DNA of 64,000 bases from positions 80,281 to 144,280 of the forward strand of contig CANOZK010000006.1 of NCBI GenBank assembly GCA_947571775.1, read 5' to 3'. The notes under the pieces are model-generated. The model did no database searches, had not been told where the DNA came from, and worked only from the letters and a program-made list of their open reading frames with translations. The first letter of the stretch is position 1. Each line of letters begins with the position of its first letter. The translations under genes were made by a program, and so were the position numbers. The stretch comes from an uncultured Lachnospiraceae bacterium. Lineage in GTDB: Bacteria; Bacillota; Clostridia; Lachnospirales; Lachnospiraceae. This document shows positions 56,234 to 59,049 of this stretch, piece after piece.

Positions 56234-56881
56234 TTACAGAAAAAAACGATGCAGACCTTCCACGGCAGGGACAATCATCACCGGACCCGCCTGCTGCAAC
56301 TCCTGAAAGCTGCCGTATCCATAGGCCACCGCCACGCAGTCGACTCCCGCCTCTTTTGCACCCTGAACGTCATGCCAGCGATCCCCAATCATGACCACCT
56401 GTTCCTTTTTGTCTTCCATGTTTAACTTTCTGAGAGCTTCCCGGATAACCTCTGCCTTGCCGCTGCGGGAACCGTCCATCTGGGTACCCTCCACCACGGT
56501 AAAAAAAGACGCAAGCTGAAAGTGCTCCAAAATCTGTCTTACATAATACACCGGCTTGGCAGAAGCCACTCCAAGGATATATCCTTGATTTTTCAAATCC
56601 TGCAAGAGTTCCCGGATTCCCTCATAGGGCCGATTCTCGTAAATCCCCTGCCGACTGTATCGCTCCCGGTAATAAGAAACCGCCTGCCAGGCCGTCTCCT
56701 CATTCATCCCATAGGCGTTCATAAACTGATCCAGCAGCGGAGGCCCGACGAACGCCTCCAACTTCTGCAAATCCGGTTCGTCTATTCCAAGCTTGTGCAG
56801 CGCATATTGAACACTTTTGGTAATTCCTTCCGCCGAAGCCGTCAGTGTGCCATCCAAATCAAATAAAATCACATGGTACAT
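56234..56881 (-). CDS. HAD-family hydrolase (phosphoglycolate phosphatase-like)
   Basis: 215 aa with HAD motif I ILFDLDGTL, motif II SAK and motif IV MIGDRWHD. Confidence 0.85.
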   Translation of the reverse strand: MYHVILFDLDGTLTASAEGITKSVQYALHKLGIDEPDLQKLEAFVGPPLLDQFMNAYGMNEETAWQAVSYYRERYSRQGIYENRPYEGIRELLQDLKNQGYILGVASAKPVYYVRQILEHFQLASFFTVVEGTQMDGSRSGKAEVIREALRKLNMEDKKEQVVMIGDRWHDVQGAKEAGVDCVAVAYGYGSFQELQQAGPVMIVPAVEGLHRFFL

Positions 56882-57034
56882 TCCCCTTGCTCCTCTCCTG
56901 AAAACCGCTGCAAGCGACTCTTTTTTTGTAATGAGCTTTCTGCTTTTCGATTTTCATCATTCTACGGCAATAGTATAACACAAATTTCCGTTTTTGGCGA
57001 TTTAATTACACCAGAGAAACCAGCTTACGATTAT

Positions 57035-57212
57035 TTATTTCTCAAATGGTACGATTGCAAGAGTCTTTCCCAATGGAACCAGAATTTTAAGGATGGTATC
57101 TATCTGTGGATTTATGCTCCCTTTCTCCATTCTAGCTATGATCGGCTGTTTGACACCGCTGAGTTCCCCAAGTCGTGTAACCGCTCTGAACTACTGCCAA
57201 ATGTTTCAACAA
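57035..57212 (-). pseudogene. possible frameshifted XRE-type HTH gene remnant
   Basis: One minus frame (57212-57132) reads LLKHLAVVQSGYTTWGTQRC...stop. A second frame (57190-57035) has no start codon and reads ..TRLGELSGVKQPIIARMEKGSINPQIDTILKILVPLGKTLAIVPFEK-stop. Together they resemble an HTH_XRE protein broken by a 1-nt shift near 57170-57176. Confidence 0.35.
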
Positions 57213-57220
57213 AAGCTCAA

Positions 57221-58888
57221 TTATCTCTCCCTCCGTGCAAGGTTGCCTGTGGTTTCTGGTGATGGCTTATGAGCGCTGTTATCTCCAATAAATTTTGCCA
57301 AAAAATCTCTATCCCACAATATGATTCCATTTTCTTTTGCCAGTTCCTTCGCCGATTTCGTGAAATAATTGCTTGTCATTACAATCCCCACATGGCAATG
57401 ATAAAATTGTTTTCCGGCAAATATTTCTTGTATCGCTTTATTTCCGACAGGATGAGAATAGCGTTTGCACTGAACTGCATATTTAATCCCATCGCGCTCT
57501 GCAAAAACGTCAACCCCCTGGTCGCCGCTCCCTTTCGTTACTTCTACATTTTCATATCCGTTTTCTTTTAATATATCCGCGCAAAAGTTCTCAAACTCCC
57601 ATCCATCCATAGAATCATAATCAAACGGAAACGCTTTGGCGCAATCCTGAATCGGTACAGCTTCCTCTTCTTTGGAAAATAGATGCTCAAATTCTTCCAT
57701 ATTGACCAAGATTTTTCTTGTTTTTTCTTTGGAGCCGGAATTGCTTTTCAAAAAATCTACGACTTTTGAAATTTCTTCATCGGATACATATGCGCCTTGA
57801 ACGCGGATTGCTCTTGTAAGCCCCCGTGCCTTGTAAAGCATATCTCCGTTTTCCAAAAGCTCTTCCGCGCCCTTTTCGTCCAAAATGGCCTCCGAATCCT
57901 TTGCCGAGGAAACACGAAACGCAATCCTTCCAGGAATATTCGCTTTGATCGGTCCGGTCAGAACATCCTCCGAAACTTTTCGTGTTGCGATAATCAGATG
58001 AATCCCGGCCGCTCTCGATATCTGCGTTATTCTGGTAATCAACCGCTCTGTTTCGTCTTTGTATAACGCCATAAAATCAGATAAATCGTCTATAATGATA
58101 AATATCCGCGGCAGTTTCTGCGATATTTTTTCAGAATTATGATATCCGTTCAAATCTCTGACGCCGCAATCCACAAACTTTCTATATCTATCTTCCGTTT
58201 CTGATATCGCCCAATTCAAGGCTTTTAAGGCCCTTGACGGATTGCTTATAACCGGTGCAAGCAGATGCGGTATCCCGTTATAAAGATTTAAATTCGTACC
58301 TTTTGTATCTATCAGAATCATTTTTACCGCATCTGGAGATGACTGATAAAGAATGCCCATAATGAAAGTGGATAGAAAATTTGTTTTGCCAGATCCGGCC
58401 GCTCCCGCAATTAAGATATGCGGCATTTCGGATAGATCAGCGATTGCATTTTCCCCAATCGTATTTTTTCCAATTACGCACGCTGCGTCAGATGGAAATT
58501 CTGTAAAATCTGCGGATTCGAGGATTCCTCTCAGGGCAACCATCGAGTGGCTTTTGTTGGCAATATCAATTCCCATAGCGAATTTTCCCGGAATGGATTT
58601 CTCAATGTGAAGATAGGAAGCCACCGTCGCTCTTTTCAACTCGTTTTTCCGTCTTGTAATTTCTTCTACCCGAACCCCTGGTTCTGGTACGATTTCGTAT
58701 CTTGTAAACCTTGCGCCTACATAAATATTGGAAACTCGTACTCTCACCCCAAAATTGAAAAGGGTTTGTTGTATCATCGCTGCGGTCCCTTTTGTTTCTT
58801 CTTTGTTCCTGCTGTGCGGACTTCTTTTCAGCAGGGATTTTGGTGGAAAACAGTACTGCGCACTTGTATATTCCTTTTGTCTGTCCAT
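57221..58888 (-). CDS. FtsK/SpoIIIE-type ATPase domain fused to a C-terminal Mrr-like restriction-endonuclease domain
   Basis: 555 aa with no TM region. The alpha/beta motor part has FGVRVRVSNIYVGARFTRYEIVPEPGVRV, Walker A GAAGSGKT and Walker B IFIIIDDLSDF. The C-terminal 130 aa (GWEFENFCADILKENGYENVEVTKGSGDQGVDVFAERDGIKYAVQCKRY) matches the Mrr_cat D-(D/E)xK pattern. Confidence 0.8.
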   Translation of the reverse strand: MDRQKEYTSAQYCFPPKSLLKRSPHSRNKEETKGTAAMIQQTLFNFGVRVRVSNIYVGARFTRYEIVPEPGVRVEEITRRKNELKRATVASYLHIEKSIPGKFAMGIDIANKSHSMVALRGILESADFTEFPSDAACVIGKNTIGENAIADLSEMPHILIAGAAGSGKTNFLSTFIMGILYQSSPDAVKMILIDTKGTNLNLYNGIPHLLAPVISNPSRALKALNWAISETEDRYRKFVDCGVRDLNGYHNSEKISQKLPRIFIIIDDLSDFMALYKDETERLITRITQISRAAGIHLIIATRKVSEDVLTGPIKANIPGRIAFRVSSAKDSEAILDEKGAEELLENGDMLYKARGLTRAIRVQGAYVSDEEISKVVDFLKSNSGSKEKTRKILVNMEEFEHLFSKEEEAVPIQDCAKAFPFDYDSMDGWEFENFCADILKENGYENVEVTKGSGDQGVDVFAERDGIKYAVQCKRYSHPVGNKAIQEIFAGKQFYHCHVGIVMTSNYFTKSAKELAKENGIILWDRDFLAKFIGDNSAHKPSPETTGNLARRER

Positions 58889-59049
58889 ATTATCTCAAAC
58901 TCCCTTTTCGTGATATATCTACATTTTATCACAAAAAGAGAACGTTGTCGAATCCTGGAAATGCCCAAATTTCAGAAATAAAAAAAGACAGCGTCAAAGA
59001 TAGCGCTGCCTCAGGCTTTTGTTGTATTTACAAGAAGGGATCTGGTCGT

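What the first reader, a model, noticed from the sequence alone, without database searches (positions are those of the whole stretch)
57221..58888. FtsK/SpoIIIE motor domain fused to an Mrr-type restriction-endonuclease domain in a small AT-rich insert
Seen in sequence: the 555-aa protein lacks the N-terminal membrane domain and the gamma (KOPS-reading) domain of FtsK. It keeps the alpha/beta motor (FGVRVRVSNIYVGARFTRYEIVPEPGVRV; Walker A GAAGSGKT). Its Walker B reads IFIIIDDLSDF, which is Asp-Asp where FtsK-family proteins normally have Asp-Glu. The C-terminal 130 aa carry the Mrr_cat pattern (GWEFE...GSGDQGVDVFA...YAVQCKRY). The gene sits between a HAD hydrolase and an ACT-domain gene, looks more AT-rich than they do, and is followed by a broken HTH gene. 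Established knowledge: FtsK/HerA-type translocases and Mrr/PD-(D/E)xK nucleases are recurrent building blocks of anti-phage and anti-plasmid systems. Inference: this is a single-polypeptide DNA-translocating nuclease that could be a defence or DNA-surveillance factor. The Asp-Asp Walker B may alter or slow ATP hydrolysis.
Basis: partly seen in the sequence, partly recalled or inferred. Interest (0 to 1): 0.6.

Follow-up and report, generated by a model that had tools for sequence, protein, structure and literature searches.

The report
Soluble FtsK motor fused to nuclease
A mouse-gut bacterium carries a rare, intact gene that joins the DNA-ring part of the cell-division protein FtsK to a restriction-type DNA-cutting domain whose closest relatives sit in the dormancy modules of resident viruses, so it is most likely an untested kind of defence against foreign DNA.

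Summary
ORF 57221-58888 (-) encodes 555 aa: FtsK alpha, FtsK/SpoIIIE beta, then Mrr_cat. It has no 4TM, no gamma domain and no membrane segment.

The Asp-Asp Walker B is real. It marks a small clade of short, membrane-less FtsK-like proteins (32 of 33 nearest hits). Ordinary FtsKs have Asp-Glu (87 of 87).

The gene is accessory. No full-length match was found in 40 relatives or in 400 genera of the family. It lies where synteny breaks in six congeners, has low GC3, and is followed by an Xre HTH remnant. It is intact in 14 within-species variants.

The same two modules are joined in at least five orders in other proteins. The nuclease residues E/D/D/Q/K are kept in all five other fusions checked. 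The ATPase residues decay stepwise, and this protein has sensor Gln->Arg and DNA-loop Arg->Glu.

The Mrr module has 259 relatives in IMG/VR. Representatives of 12 of 26 clusters sit just upstream of a prophage integrase.

Best reading (about 0.5): a single-protein anti-invader nuclease of the 'HerA/FtsK capture' kind. The FtsK ring probably acts more as an ATP-gated DNA clamp than as a fast motor. No function was tested, and the genomic context of the closest fusions could not be fetched.

The parts
57221..58888 (-). FtsK(alpha-beta)-Mrr fusion gene, 555 aa
   Evidence: ORF list; Pfam. The identical protein P0235 and 13 near-identical variants of 554-555 aa occur in other assemblies.
58556..58849 (-). 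FtsK alpha domain (residues 14-111)
   Evidence: Pfam PF17854, E 1.9e-18. Aligns to P. aeruginosa FtsK 2iuu. AF2 pLDDT is mostly above 85 here.
57734..58534 (-). FtsK beta (RecA-like) domain, residues 119-385
   Evidence: Pfam PF01580, E 9.4e-47 over residues 119-306. phmmer to 2iuu gives E 5.5e-85 and aligns residues 9-256 and 258-399. AF2 is confident up to about residue 310 and below 50 for 313-421.
58382..58405 (-). Walker A, GAAGSGKT (residues 162-169; Lys168)
   Evidence: Position. G162, G165-K168 are invariant in 26 of 26 clade members.
58076..58099 (-). Walker B, IIIDDLSD (residues 264-271; D267 D268 in place of Asp-Glu)
   Evidence: Position. DD is invariant in 26 of 26 and present in 32 of 33 nearest hits, while 87 of 87 canonical FtsKs have DE.
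58013..58015 (-). Arg292, counterpart of the FtsK arginine finger (PaFtsK R620); kept
   Evidence: Mapped through the 2iuu alignment with residue numbers from PMC7321959. Tabulated.
57977..57982 (-). Arg303-Lys304, where FtsK has the sensor Gln631 and DNA-loop Arg632 (deviation)
   Evidence: 87 of 87 canonical FtsKs have Q and R here; this protein has R and K.
57890..57892 (-). Glu333, where FtsK has the DNA-contact Arg661 (deviation; Lys330 is new nearby)
   Evidence: 87 of 87 canonical FtsKs have R here; this protein has E.
57617..57733 (-). Linker, residues 386-424, taking the place of the linker to gamma
   Evidence: No Pfam hit. AF2 pLDDT is below 50.
57290..57616 (-). Mrr_cat PD-(D/E)xK nuclease domain, residues 425-533, with E433, D456, D460, Q473, K475
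   Evidence: Pfam PF04471, E 1.1e-32. The five residues are invariant in 17 of 17. In the domain-only AF2 model the core blocks have pLDDT 93-98 (mean 79.8). Foldseek finds 1y88, MspJI, AspBHI, EndoMS and the Avs4 nuclease.
57038..57190 (-). Remnant of an Xre-type HTH gene: 51 codons, no start codon, in-frame stops just upstream
   Evidence: Translation. It is the only copy in the genome. Assigning it to the Xre/HTH_3 type is my reading of the sequence; it was not scanned against Pfam.
58923..58951 (-). Promoter-like site: TCGACA, 17 nt, TAAAAT, with TG before the -10; 35 nt upstream of the ATG
   Evidence: Consensus scan, 10 of 12 matches. This is a consensus match only.

Best explanation
The gene encodes a cytoplasmic, single-polypeptide nuclease aimed at foreign DNA. 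It was assembled from two modules that circulate on mobile elements of gut Firmicutes.

Shown:
- The FtsK alpha/beta part keeps the P-loop Lys and the arginine finger.
- It has Asp in place of the catalytic Walker B Glu, Arg in place of the sensor Gln, and Glu in place of one DNA-contact Arg.
- The Mrr part keeps all PD-(D/E)xK-type residues (E433, D456/D460, Q473-x-K475).

Inferred:
- The alpha/beta part assembles, as FtsK does, into a ring around double-stranded DNA.
- ATP binding, with slow hydrolysis, gates loading or short-range movement rather than fast pumping.
- The ring brings several Mrr domains onto the encircled duplex, which is then cut.
- This resembles the way the McrB ring serves McrC. 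It also resembles what was proposed for the captured FtsK domain of DndH-type systems.
- How self DNA is spared is unknown. The lost HTH gene may once have controlled expression.

The gene reached this species by horizontal transfer. It is kept intact there as a solitary accessory gene.
For: Architecture and residues:
- Domain order and key residues are documented.
- The nuclease fold model matches MspJI, AspBHI, the Avs4 nuclease and Can2/Card1-type nucleases.

Accessory and horizontally acquired:
- One copy in the genome, beside one ordinary FtsK.
- No full-length match in 40 relatives, 9 of them congeners.
- None among the 150 best of 484 match rows from 400 family genomes. A fusion would rank first there.
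- The Spo0A-GlgA-CotF-CotF-ACT block is conserved in 6 of 6 congener loci, but what follows ACT differs in each lineage. One congener has an AAA_15/AAA_21 ATPase plus DUF3226 pair at that spot.
- GC3 is low.

Maintained:
- 14 variants of 554-555 aa; the 11 of length 555 differ at 0-8 residues, none of them a key residue. They come from some 70 contigs.
- DNA runs of several studies hold the stretch.
- RNA-library contigs of 4 runs from 2 studies cover parts of it at 100% identity (weak).

Rosetta-stone argument:
- The same Mrr subtype and the same kind of membrane-less FtsK are joined in at least five orders:
  - alpha-beta-Mrr (this protein, P0002);
  - alpha-beta-Mrr-gamma (P0296);
  - Mrr-alpha-beta-gamma (P0294);
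  - X-Mrr-alpha-beta (P0298);
  - TM-gamma-Mrr-alpha-beta (P0003, P0007 group).

- E/D/D/Q/K is kept in all 5 other fusions checked.

Context of the Mrr module:
- 259 IMG/VR relatives; the best 80 are 48-69% identical.
- Representatives of 12 of 26 clusters (clusters holding 39 of the 80 loci) have a Tyr or Ser integrase within two ORFs downstream. Several have an HTH_3 repressor and an M78 protease upstream. Others lie next to the endolysin.
- From general knowledge, this is where prophages keep genes expressed in lysogens.

Other support:
- A sibling fusion carries TIR in place of Mrr (P0299).
- Print: 'HerA/FtsK capture' systems with FtsK-alpha-bearing ATPases taken from cellular FtsK and active restriction-fold nucleases (PMC10853773; passages read).
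Against: - No functional test of any kind was made.
- PADLOC recognises no system, only domain-level partial hits.
- The gene is not in a defence island; its neighbours are housekeeping genes.
- No reader domain or partner gene explains how self DNA is told from foreign DNA.
- The motor deviates at the sensor Gln and at Arg661.
- AF2 gives pLDDT below 50 for residues 313-421, which include the C-terminal part of the beta domain. The mixed alignment used may be the cause.
- The genomic context of the true fusions (P0002, P0296, P0003, P0007) could not be seen.
- None of the 80 viral Mrr loci has an FtsK motor nearby.
- No fusion was found in phage, plasmid or IMG/VR collections.
- The prophage position of the Mrr relatives would also fit a role for the phage itself.
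Confidence: 0.5

Rival explanations
1. It is a modification-dependent (Type IV, Mrr-like) restriction enzyme. The Mrr domain cuts only DNA that carries a foreign methylation or other base modification, and the FtsK part is the DNA-tracking ATPase. This is still defence, but with a defined rule for telling self from foreign DNA.
For: - Mrr_cat scores E 1.1e-32.
- The best structural matches after AF1548 are the modification-dependent enzymes MspJI and AspBHI.
- PADLOC gives a weak hit to mREase_IV, E 1.1e-4.
Against: - No modification-reading domain was found. Pfam shows no Mrr_N, SRA or similar domain.
- The matches concern only the catalytic fold, which many other nucleases share.
Confidence: 0.15
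2. It is a stranded cargo gene of a decayed mobile element, and its job served the element rather than the host. Possible jobs are processing, resolving or partitioning the element's own DNA, or degrading host DNA. It now persists in the chromosome without defending it.
For: - An HTH remnant lies right behind the gene, and GC3 is atypical.
- Mrr relatives lie inside prophages.
- A short DD-type FtsK in a MAG sits beside a PIN protein and a DUF4942 methyltransferase.
- Atlas look-alikes of short alpha-beta FtsK proteins are partly labelled viral. Scores are below 0.9, so this is a lead only.
Against: - No integrase, replication or transfer gene is left nearby.
- The gene is intact, with its own promoter-like site, in all 14 variants. 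That is not expected for a function that lost its element.
- The DD-type motor was not found in IMG/VR; the best match is 45% identical.
Confidence: 0.15
3. It is a functionless leftover on its way to decay. The deviating motor residues are the first signs.
For: - Sensor Gln->Arg and Arg661->Glu in this protein.
- Relatives have dead motors.
- A relative in G156 is a pseudogene with two stop codons.
- The neighbouring HTH gene is already broken.
Against: - No frameshift or stop codon in 14 variants of 554-555 aa from about 70 contigs.
- The nuclease residues are invariant.
- Parts of the gene are present in RNA libraries of two studies.
- P0002 keeps the full architecture at 75% identity.
Confidence: 0.1
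4. It has a housekeeping role in chromosome handling, for example clearing or cutting DNA trapped at the division or sporulation septum, as a soluble helper of the membrane FtsK/SpoIIIE.
For: - The motor is a true FtsK alpha/beta, 48-52% identical to the family's own FtsK.
- The locus lies near spo0A, spoIVB and cotF. The spoIVB name is my reading of the ORF translation; it was not scanned.
Against: - Not found in 9 congeners, 31 further relatives or 400 family genomes.
- Composition is atypical.
- A nuclease on a chromosome-tracking ring would endanger the cell.
- It lacks gamma, the domain that gives FtsK its direction and its link to Xer (from general knowledge).
Confidence: 0.05

Closest known systems
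'HerA/FtsK capture' anti-invader systems, including DndH/SspH of DndFGH and SspFGH (Krishnan, Burroughs, Iyer, Aravind; NAR 2024; PMC10853773; passages read)
   Same: - An active restriction-fold endonuclease is combined with a HerA/FtsK-class ATPase.
- Some versions carry the FtsK-alpha domain and were taken from the cellular FtsK.
- The proposed role is to intercept or position invader DNA for the nuclease.
- PADLOC's SspH models match the motor at E 7e-53.
   Different: - Those proteins are about 1700 aa, with eight or more domains (TRD, an inactive methylase, a helicase remnant) and partner genes (DndF/G, ORC/Cdc6, D5 helicase, wHTH).
- This protein is 555 aa, stands alone, uses an Mrr-type nuclease and puts it C-terminal to the motor.
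- Only the C-terminal 240 positions of the SspH model match.
FtsK/SpoIIIE DNA translocases (P. aeruginosa FtsK alpha-beta; PDB 2iuu, 6t8b)
   Same: - Alpha and beta domains align over residues 9-399, E 5.5e-85.
- The P-loop, the Walker B Asp, the arginine finger, and loop II Ser, Gly and Lys are kept.
   Different: - No 4TM anchor, no long linker and no gamma domain.
- Walker B Glu->Asp, sensor Gln->Arg, Arg632->Lys, Arg661->Glu.
- The NCBIfam FtsK equivalog scores 283.7 bits against a cut-off of 1566.
Mrr and Mrr-like Type IV restriction endonucleases (Pfam Mrr_cat; MspJI and AspBHI catalytic domains)
   Same: - PD-(D/E)xK fold with the E ... D ... QxK pattern.
   Different: - No N-terminal DNA- or modification-reading domain.
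- Fused to an FtsK motor instead.
McrBC (a working analogy recalled from general knowledge; not tested here)
   Same: A ring NTPase on DNA that brings in a PD-(D/E)xK nuclease.
   Different: - McrB is a GTP-specific AAA+ protein with a methyl-cytosine reader.
- The nuclease McrC is a separate protein.
- There is no homology between the two motors.
Prophage-borne, membrane-anchored Mrr proteins of gut Firmicutes (uncharacterised; PHROG 19856 'unknown function')
   Same: - The nuclease domain is 48-69% identical.
- The same invariant residues are present.
- Some carry an FtsK gamma domain.
   Different: - They have an N-terminal membrane helix and no FtsK motor.
- They lie between repressor and integrase or next to the endolysin.

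Membership tests
FtsK/SpoIIIE DNA translocase (canonical) | N-terminal 4TM membrane anchor | tested here: not met
   No PF13491 hit. Highest hydropathy is 1.18.
FtsK/SpoIIIE DNA translocase (canonical) | Alpha plus beta motor domains with P-loop Lys and arginine finger | tested here: met
   Pfam; 2iuu alignment; K168 and R292.
FtsK/SpoIIIE DNA translocase (canonical) | Walker B Asp-Glu, sensor Gln, DNA-loop Arg632 and Arg661 | tested here: not met
   This protein has DD, R303, K304 and E333. 87 of 87 canonical hits have DE, Q, R and R.
FtsK/SpoIIIE DNA translocase (canonical) | C-terminal gamma (winged-helix) domain | tested here: not met
   No PF09397 hit. Mrr_cat takes its place.
FtsK/SpoIIIE DNA translocase (canonical) | NCBIfam equivalog score | tested here: not met
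   NF007615 scores 283.7 bits; the cut-off is 1566.
Mrr_cat (PF04471) PD-(D/E)xK nucleases | Profile match above the gathering score | tested here: met
   113 bits against a cut-off of 21, covering profile positions 2-114 of 115.
Mrr_cat (PF04471) PD-(D/E)xK nucleases | Catalytic pattern Glu ... Asp ... (Gln/Glu)-x-Lys | tested here: met
   E433, D456/D460 and Q473-C-K475 are invariant in 17 of 17. Which residues are catalytic in Mrr is recalled, not tested.
Mrr_cat (PF04471) PD-(D/E)xK nucleases | Nuclease fold | tested here: met
   AF2 domain model with pLDDT 93-98 in the core. Foldseek: 1y88 at E 6.4e-7, MspJI at E 3.5e-6.
Type IV restriction enzyme Mrr (E. coli type) | N-terminal DNA- or modification-reading domain, and cleavage that depends on modification | tested here: not met
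   No reader domain in Pfam. Dependence on modification cannot be tested with these tools.
HerA/FtsK capture systems (PMC10853773) | HerA/FtsK-class ATPase combined with an active restriction-fold nuclease | tested here: met
   'Active' is judged from residues only.
HerA/FtsK capture systems (PMC10853773) | Partner components (DndF/G, ORC/Cdc6 ATPase, inactive D5 helicase, rapidly evolving wHTH proteins) | tested here: not met
   The neighbours are HAD, ACT, CotF and a CAAX protease. Only a broken HTH lies nearby.
Known PADLOC systems (Ssp, MADS, Zorya, PDC-S02) | Full-length match to a system protein, together with the system's other genes | tested here: not met
   The hits cover only the motor (SspH model positions 1525-1765 of 1766; mad8) or only the nuclease (ZorD positions 944-1064 of 1071).

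The most novel reading that the evidence does not exclude
Membrane-less FtsK rings tethered to an Mrr nuclease form an unrecognised class of single-protein immunity. In this class the former DNA pump has become a nucleotide-gated clamp or sensor for foreign DNA: the ATPase residues decay while the nuclease stays intact across at least five independent domain orders. Its nuclease module comes from a large, uncharacterised family of membrane-anchored Mrr proteins that temperate phages of gut Firmicutes express from their lysogeny modules as superinfection-exclusion nucleases.
Probability: 0.3. Interest if true: 0.7.

Novelty: new variant of a known kind. Interest (0 to 1): 0.5.

Why it matters
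If it protects against foreign DNA, it would be one of the smallest ATPase-nuclease defence proteins, and a natural minimal model for the 'HerA/FtsK capture' idea, which so far rests on comparative genomics.

The series from a fully canonical motor to a dead one, with an unchanged nuclease, offers a ready-made set of natural variants. These could show what the FtsK ring contributes: pumping, clamping or sensing.

The work also points to an abundant prophage-borne family of membrane-anchored Mrr nucleases in gut Firmicutes. No function is on record for it in the libraries searched.

Tried and rejected
Searches that found no fusion:
- IMG/VR with the single protein found no relative.
- IMG/VR with the clade alignment found nothing above 45% identity.
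- tblastn against phage records (421 records matched) and plasmid records (1475 matched) gave 0 places covering 80% or more of the query.

Scans that gave no context:
These were picked through the P-loop pattern. Only L030 was a clade member.
- I first read those loci as FtsKs with a DD Walker B and noted that DD occurs in ordinary FtsKs. One search showed this to be wrong. 74 of 79 genome loci and 73 of 80 metagenome loci have DE, none has DD, and 5 and 7 match neither pattern. The idea is withdrawn.

Family-wide genome searches:
- Searches with this protein and with P0007 (400 genomes each) listed only the best 150 rows. All were ordinary FtsK motors at 52% identity or less. Weaker Mrr-only rows were not shown.

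Other dead ends:
- A search for the Mrr part in proteins longer than 972 aa found none. The tool itself calls this weak evidence.
- The +-strand ORF 56873-57262 (129 aa), which overlaps the gap, has no Pfam family. I read it as the shadow of the HTH remnant.
- Flanking repeats: one 17-nt AT-rich inverted pair, not distinguishable from chance.
- Iyer et al. 2004 (PMC521647) is not held, so I could not check whether that paper already lists an FtsK-Mrr fusion.
- RNA contigs left 57340-57567 and 58822-59049 uncovered. No conclusion is drawn from that.
- No complex prediction was run.
Full report
**What is there**

The minus-strand ORF 57221-58888 starts with ATG and encodes 555 aa. Pfam finds three domains:

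| Domain | Residues | E-value |
|---|---|---|
| FtsK_alpha | 14-111 | 1.9e-18 |
| FtsK_SpoIIIE | 119-306 | 9.4e-47 |
| Mrr_cat | 425-533 | 1.1e-32 |

- There is no FtsK_4TM and no FtsK_gamma hit.
- No stretch is hydrophobic enough for a membrane helix; the maximum is 1.18.
- The motor aligns to the solved P. aeruginosa FtsK alpha-beta (2iuu) over residues 9-399, E 5.5e-85.
- The NCBIfam FtsK equivalog scores 283.7 bits against a cut-off of 1566. The protein is therefore built from FtsK parts but is not an FtsK.
- The neighbours are a HAD hydrolase and an ACT_8 protein.
- Directly after the stop codon the same strand reads 51 codons of the C-terminal two thirds of an Xre-like HTH. They have no start codon, and stop codons lie just upstream.
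- A promoter-like site (10 of 12 matches, with TG) lies 35 nt upstream of the ATG.

**Composition**

- The gene has 42.1% GC. HAD has 51.4%, ACT 49.4% and the genome 46.7%.
- Among 5263 windows of equal size this is only the 13th percentile.
- GC3 is 0.397 against 0.53-0.63 for the neighbours. That is the 5.8th percentile of 1178 crudely called ORFs of at least 300 aa.
- 'AT-rich insert' is fair, but the signal is moderate.
- No insertion borders were found.

**An accessory gene at a variable junction**

- The 2.70-Mb genome (99% complete) has one copy of this gene and one ordinary FtsK (780-aa frame, 48% identical).
- None of 40 relatives (9 congeners, 15 from the family, 16 from the order) has a full-length match. 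Their best hits are ordinary FtsK motors at 51% identity or less.
- In 400 further genomes, one per genus of the family, the best hit after self scores 392.8 bits. Known clade members score 469-936 bits. Only the 150 best of 484 rows were printed, but a fusion would stand at the top.
- In six congeners the block Spo0A-GlgA-CotF-CotF-ACT is conserved at 77-96% protein identity. What follows ACT differs:

| Congener(s) | What follows ACT |
|---|---|
| Three | A 494-504-aa membrane protein |
| One | An RsmB-like gene on the other strand (my reading of its sequence; not scanned) |
| One | DegV (also my reading; not scanned) |
| One | An AAA_15/AAA_21 ATPase with a DUF3226 protein, then DegV |

- The counterparts of these genes lie on other contigs of this genome.
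- The gene thus sits at a synteny breakpoint where other lineages hold other cargo.

**It is maintained**

- The 90% cluster has 16 members seen on some 70 contigs from several sources.
- Fourteen of them are 554-555 aa. The eleven of length 555 differ from the window's protein at 0-8 positions, none of them a key residue.
- Thirteen DNA runs hold at least 95% of the sampled words of the stretch, mostly from mouse gut.
- Contigs from four metatranscriptome libraries of two studies cover parts of the gene at 100% identity, at depths like those of the neighbours. This is weak evidence for transcription, because DNA carry-over cannot be excluded.

**The Walker B Asp-Asp**

- Among the 120 best hits, the 33 nearest (P0001-P0032 and P0060; 383-803 aa, none with a 4TM domain) have DD in 32 cases and ED in one (P0026).
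- The other 87, all ordinary FtsKs (nearly all with the 4TM domain), have DE.
- D267 and D268 are invariant in an alignment of 26 clade members.
- I first thought DD also occurs in ordinary FtsKs of other phyla. A check showed that those loci carry DE: 74 of 79 and 73 of 80, none with DD.
- DD is therefore a derived signature of a small clade of short, soluble FtsK-like proteins (alpha-beta-gamma, about 476 aa), known mainly from mouse-gut Lachnospiraceae.
- These short proteins are otherwise fully canonical at the P-loop Lys, the arginine finger, the sensor Gln and the DNA loops. DD alone therefore does not mean a dead enzyme.
- From general knowledge of P-loop ATPases, the Walker B Glu activates the attacking water. 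Asp in its place is expected to slow hydrolysis rather than abolish nucleotide binding. This was not tested.

**The motor in Mrr fusions drifts; the nuclease does not**

The residue roles of P. aeruginosa FtsK come from PMC7321959 (passages read): R620 is the arginine finger, R632/S634/G640/K643 form DNA loop II, and K657/R661 form loop I. I mapped them through the 2iuu alignment; the identities of the flanking residues confirm the register.

| Protein(s) | State of the motor residues |
|---|---|
| 87 of 87 ordinary FtsKs | K, D-E, R, Q, R, S, G, K, R |
| This protein | K168, D267-D268, R292 kept; Q631->R303, R632->K304, R661->E333, with a new K330 |
| P0002 (75% identical, same architecture) | Q and R661 kept; R632->N, G640->E |
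| P0003 | Canonical apart from DD |
| P0007 group | Arginine finger R->K, Q->R, R632->S, R661->I or V |
| P0296, P0298 | Walker B Asp-His; no arginine finger |
| P0294 | No P-loop Lys; no arginine finger |
| P0142, P0148, P0199, P0209 | Only remnants of a motor |

- In contrast, E433, D456, D460, Q473 and K475 of the Mrr domain are invariant in 17 of 17 aligned family members.
- They are also kept in all five other fusions checked.
- The domain-only AF2 model has pLDDT 93-98 in the core. It matches AF1548, MspJI, AspBHI, EndoMS/NucS, the nuclease of Avs4 and Can2/Card1/Cdn1-type nucleases.
- The full-length model (mean pLDDT 72) is confident for alpha, for the first two thirds of beta and for Mrr. 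It falls below 50 for residues 313-421. That alignment mixed proteins of different architecture, so I do not read this as loss of fold. It remains a caveat.

**Many fusion orders**

An exhaustive profile-free search of 1.84 billion representative proteins, followed by Pfam, shows the same two modules joined in several orders:

| Order | Examples |
|---|---|
| alpha-beta-Mrr | This protein, P0002 |
| alpha-beta-Mrr-gamma | P0296 (637 aa, colinear, 42% identical) |
| Mrr-alpha-beta-gamma | P0294 |
| X-Mrr-alpha-beta | P0298 |
| TM-gamma-Mrr-alpha-beta | P0003, P0007, P0012, P0015, P0017, P0018, P0020 |

- Other membrane-less FtsK proteins in the same list carry an N-terminal TIR_2 domain (P0299) or a DJ-1/PfpI domain (P0292) in front of tandem motors.
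- Repeated independent joining of two modules argues that they work together.
- TIR at the equivalent position points to conflict systems (general knowledge).
- In one family genome (G156), a pseudogenised short alpha-beta-gamma FtsK is directly followed by a protein with the HSDR_N nuclease fold and preceded by an HTH_26 gene. This is an unfused version of the same pairing.

**Where the nuclease module comes from**

- The Mrr part alone has 263 cluster-level relatives of 305-972 aa. Most have an N-terminal membrane helix preceded by a conserved Gly-Cys-Gly motif. Many also carry an FtsK gamma domain, and some carry two Mrr domains.
- A scan of IMG/VR with an alignment of this module found 259 relatives. 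The best 80 loci are 48-69% identical to the window's domain and encode proteins of 215-647 aa. None has an FtsK motor nearby.
- The 80 fall into 26 clusters.
  - In the representatives of 11 clusters, Pfam finds a tyrosine or serine integrase within two ORFs downstream on the same strand.
  - For a twelfth cluster, PHROGs finds one in a locus (L337) that I assigned to that cluster from its protein length; the membership was not printed.
  - These 12 clusters hold 39 of the 80 loci. Only representatives were examined.
- Several have an HTH_3 repressor and an M78 (ImmA-like) protease just upstream. Other clusters lie beside the endolysin or a LytTR regulator, and one lies inside the tail module.
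- 33 of the 80 genes lie within 4 kb of the downstream contig end.
- This is the lysogeny or 'moron' region of temperate phages. From general knowledge, prophages keep genes there that are expressed in the lysogen, often for superinfection exclusion or defence.
- The HTH remnant behind the window's gene fits descent from such a setting. That link is inference.

**What it most likely does**

Taken together, I read the protein as a solitary anti-invader nuclease built on the pattern that Krishnan and co-workers called 'HerA/FtsK capture' (PMC10853773; passages read). That pattern is a restriction-fold nuclease joined to an FtsK-type ATPase taken from the cellular FtsK, alpha domain included.

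- Shown: the parts, their residues, their distribution and their contexts.
- Inferred: ring assembly on duplex DNA, ATP as a gate rather than as fuel for fast pumping (from the drift of the motor residues), and cleavage of the encircled DNA by the tethered Mrr domains.
- Unknown: how self DNA is spared. No reader domain, methylase or partner gene is present.

The rivals are set out in their own section: a modification-dependent Type IV enzyme, a cargo gene that served a lost element, plain decay, and a housekeeping role.

**Comparison and novelty**

- PADLOC (2023) gives only domain-level hits.
- Two full-text searches listed 11 and 8 papers:
  - FtsK + Mrr + defense;
  - FtsK + restriction endonuclease + anti-phage + translocase, from 2018 onwards.
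- From the listings, and from passages of four of these papers, none describes an alpha-beta-Mrr protein or the prophage Mrr family.
- Iyer et al. 2004 could not be read. Supplementary data of the 2024 paper were not opened, so a mention there cannot be excluded.
- I rate the finding a new variant of a known kind.

**Limits**

- No function was tested.
- The contexts of the closest fusions could not be fetched.
- The two large context scans were consumed by ordinary FtsKs.
- The IMG/VR contigs are predicted viral sequences.
- The counts for phage context rest on cluster representatives.

Noticed in passing
IMG/VR loci L290-L369 (for example L296:9674-10627, L309:9515-10354, L337:9647-10408): There is a large family of membrane-anchored Mrr_cat proteins of 215-647 aa, some with an FtsK gamma domain. 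They lie in prophage lysogeny modules between repressor/ImmA and integrase, or next to the endolysin. PHROG 19856 lists them as 'unknown function'. They are candidate superinfection-exclusion nucleases.
   Followed up: partly
L027:4578-6313 (congener G004, directly after the ACT gene): An AAA_15/AAA_21 ATPase (358 aa) plus a DUF3226 protein (219 aa) occupy the same junction that holds the FtsK-Mrr gene in the window. This is another accessory pair of defence-like make-up at this hot spot.
   Followed up: partly
Proteins P0299 (1048 aa) and P0292 (1227 aa): Membrane-less proteins with tandem FtsK alpha-beta motors and gamma domains carry an N-terminal TIR_2 domain (P0299) or a DJ-1/PfpI domain (P0292). 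Several others (P0293, P0295, P0297, P0301, P0302, P0355) have two FtsK motors in one chain.
   Followed up: partly
L370:7617-10827 (genome G156, contig C19): A short FtsK alpha-beta-gamma gene broken by two stop codons (Walker B reads Asn-Asp) is directly followed by a 363-aa HSDR_N nuclease-fold protein and preceded by an HTH_26 gene. This is an unfused FtsK-plus-nuclease cassette in decay.
   Followed up: partly
L030:7995-9425 and neighbours (MAG contig CAJUED010000038.1): The only clade member among the best 80 loci that the species-representative scan returned. It is a 476-aa DD-type alpha-beta-gamma FtsK. It lies among a PIN protein, several proteins with no family match and a methyltransferase with DUF4942, which suggests a mobile element.
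   Followed up: partly
window 57031-57047 and 58969-58985: A 17-nt AT-rich inverted repeat (88% complementary) brackets the promoter, the gene and the HTH remnant. By a rough estimate it is not distinguishable from chance.
   Followed up: partly
Proteins P0125, P0121, P0122: Some membrane proteins of the family carry two Mrr domains. In P0125 the second has lost the QxK motif, so one domain looks active and one inactive.
   Followed up: no
window 56873-57262 (+): A 129-aa open frame on the opposite strand spans the gap and overlaps the end of the gene. It has no Pfam family and is probably not a gene.
   Followed up: partly
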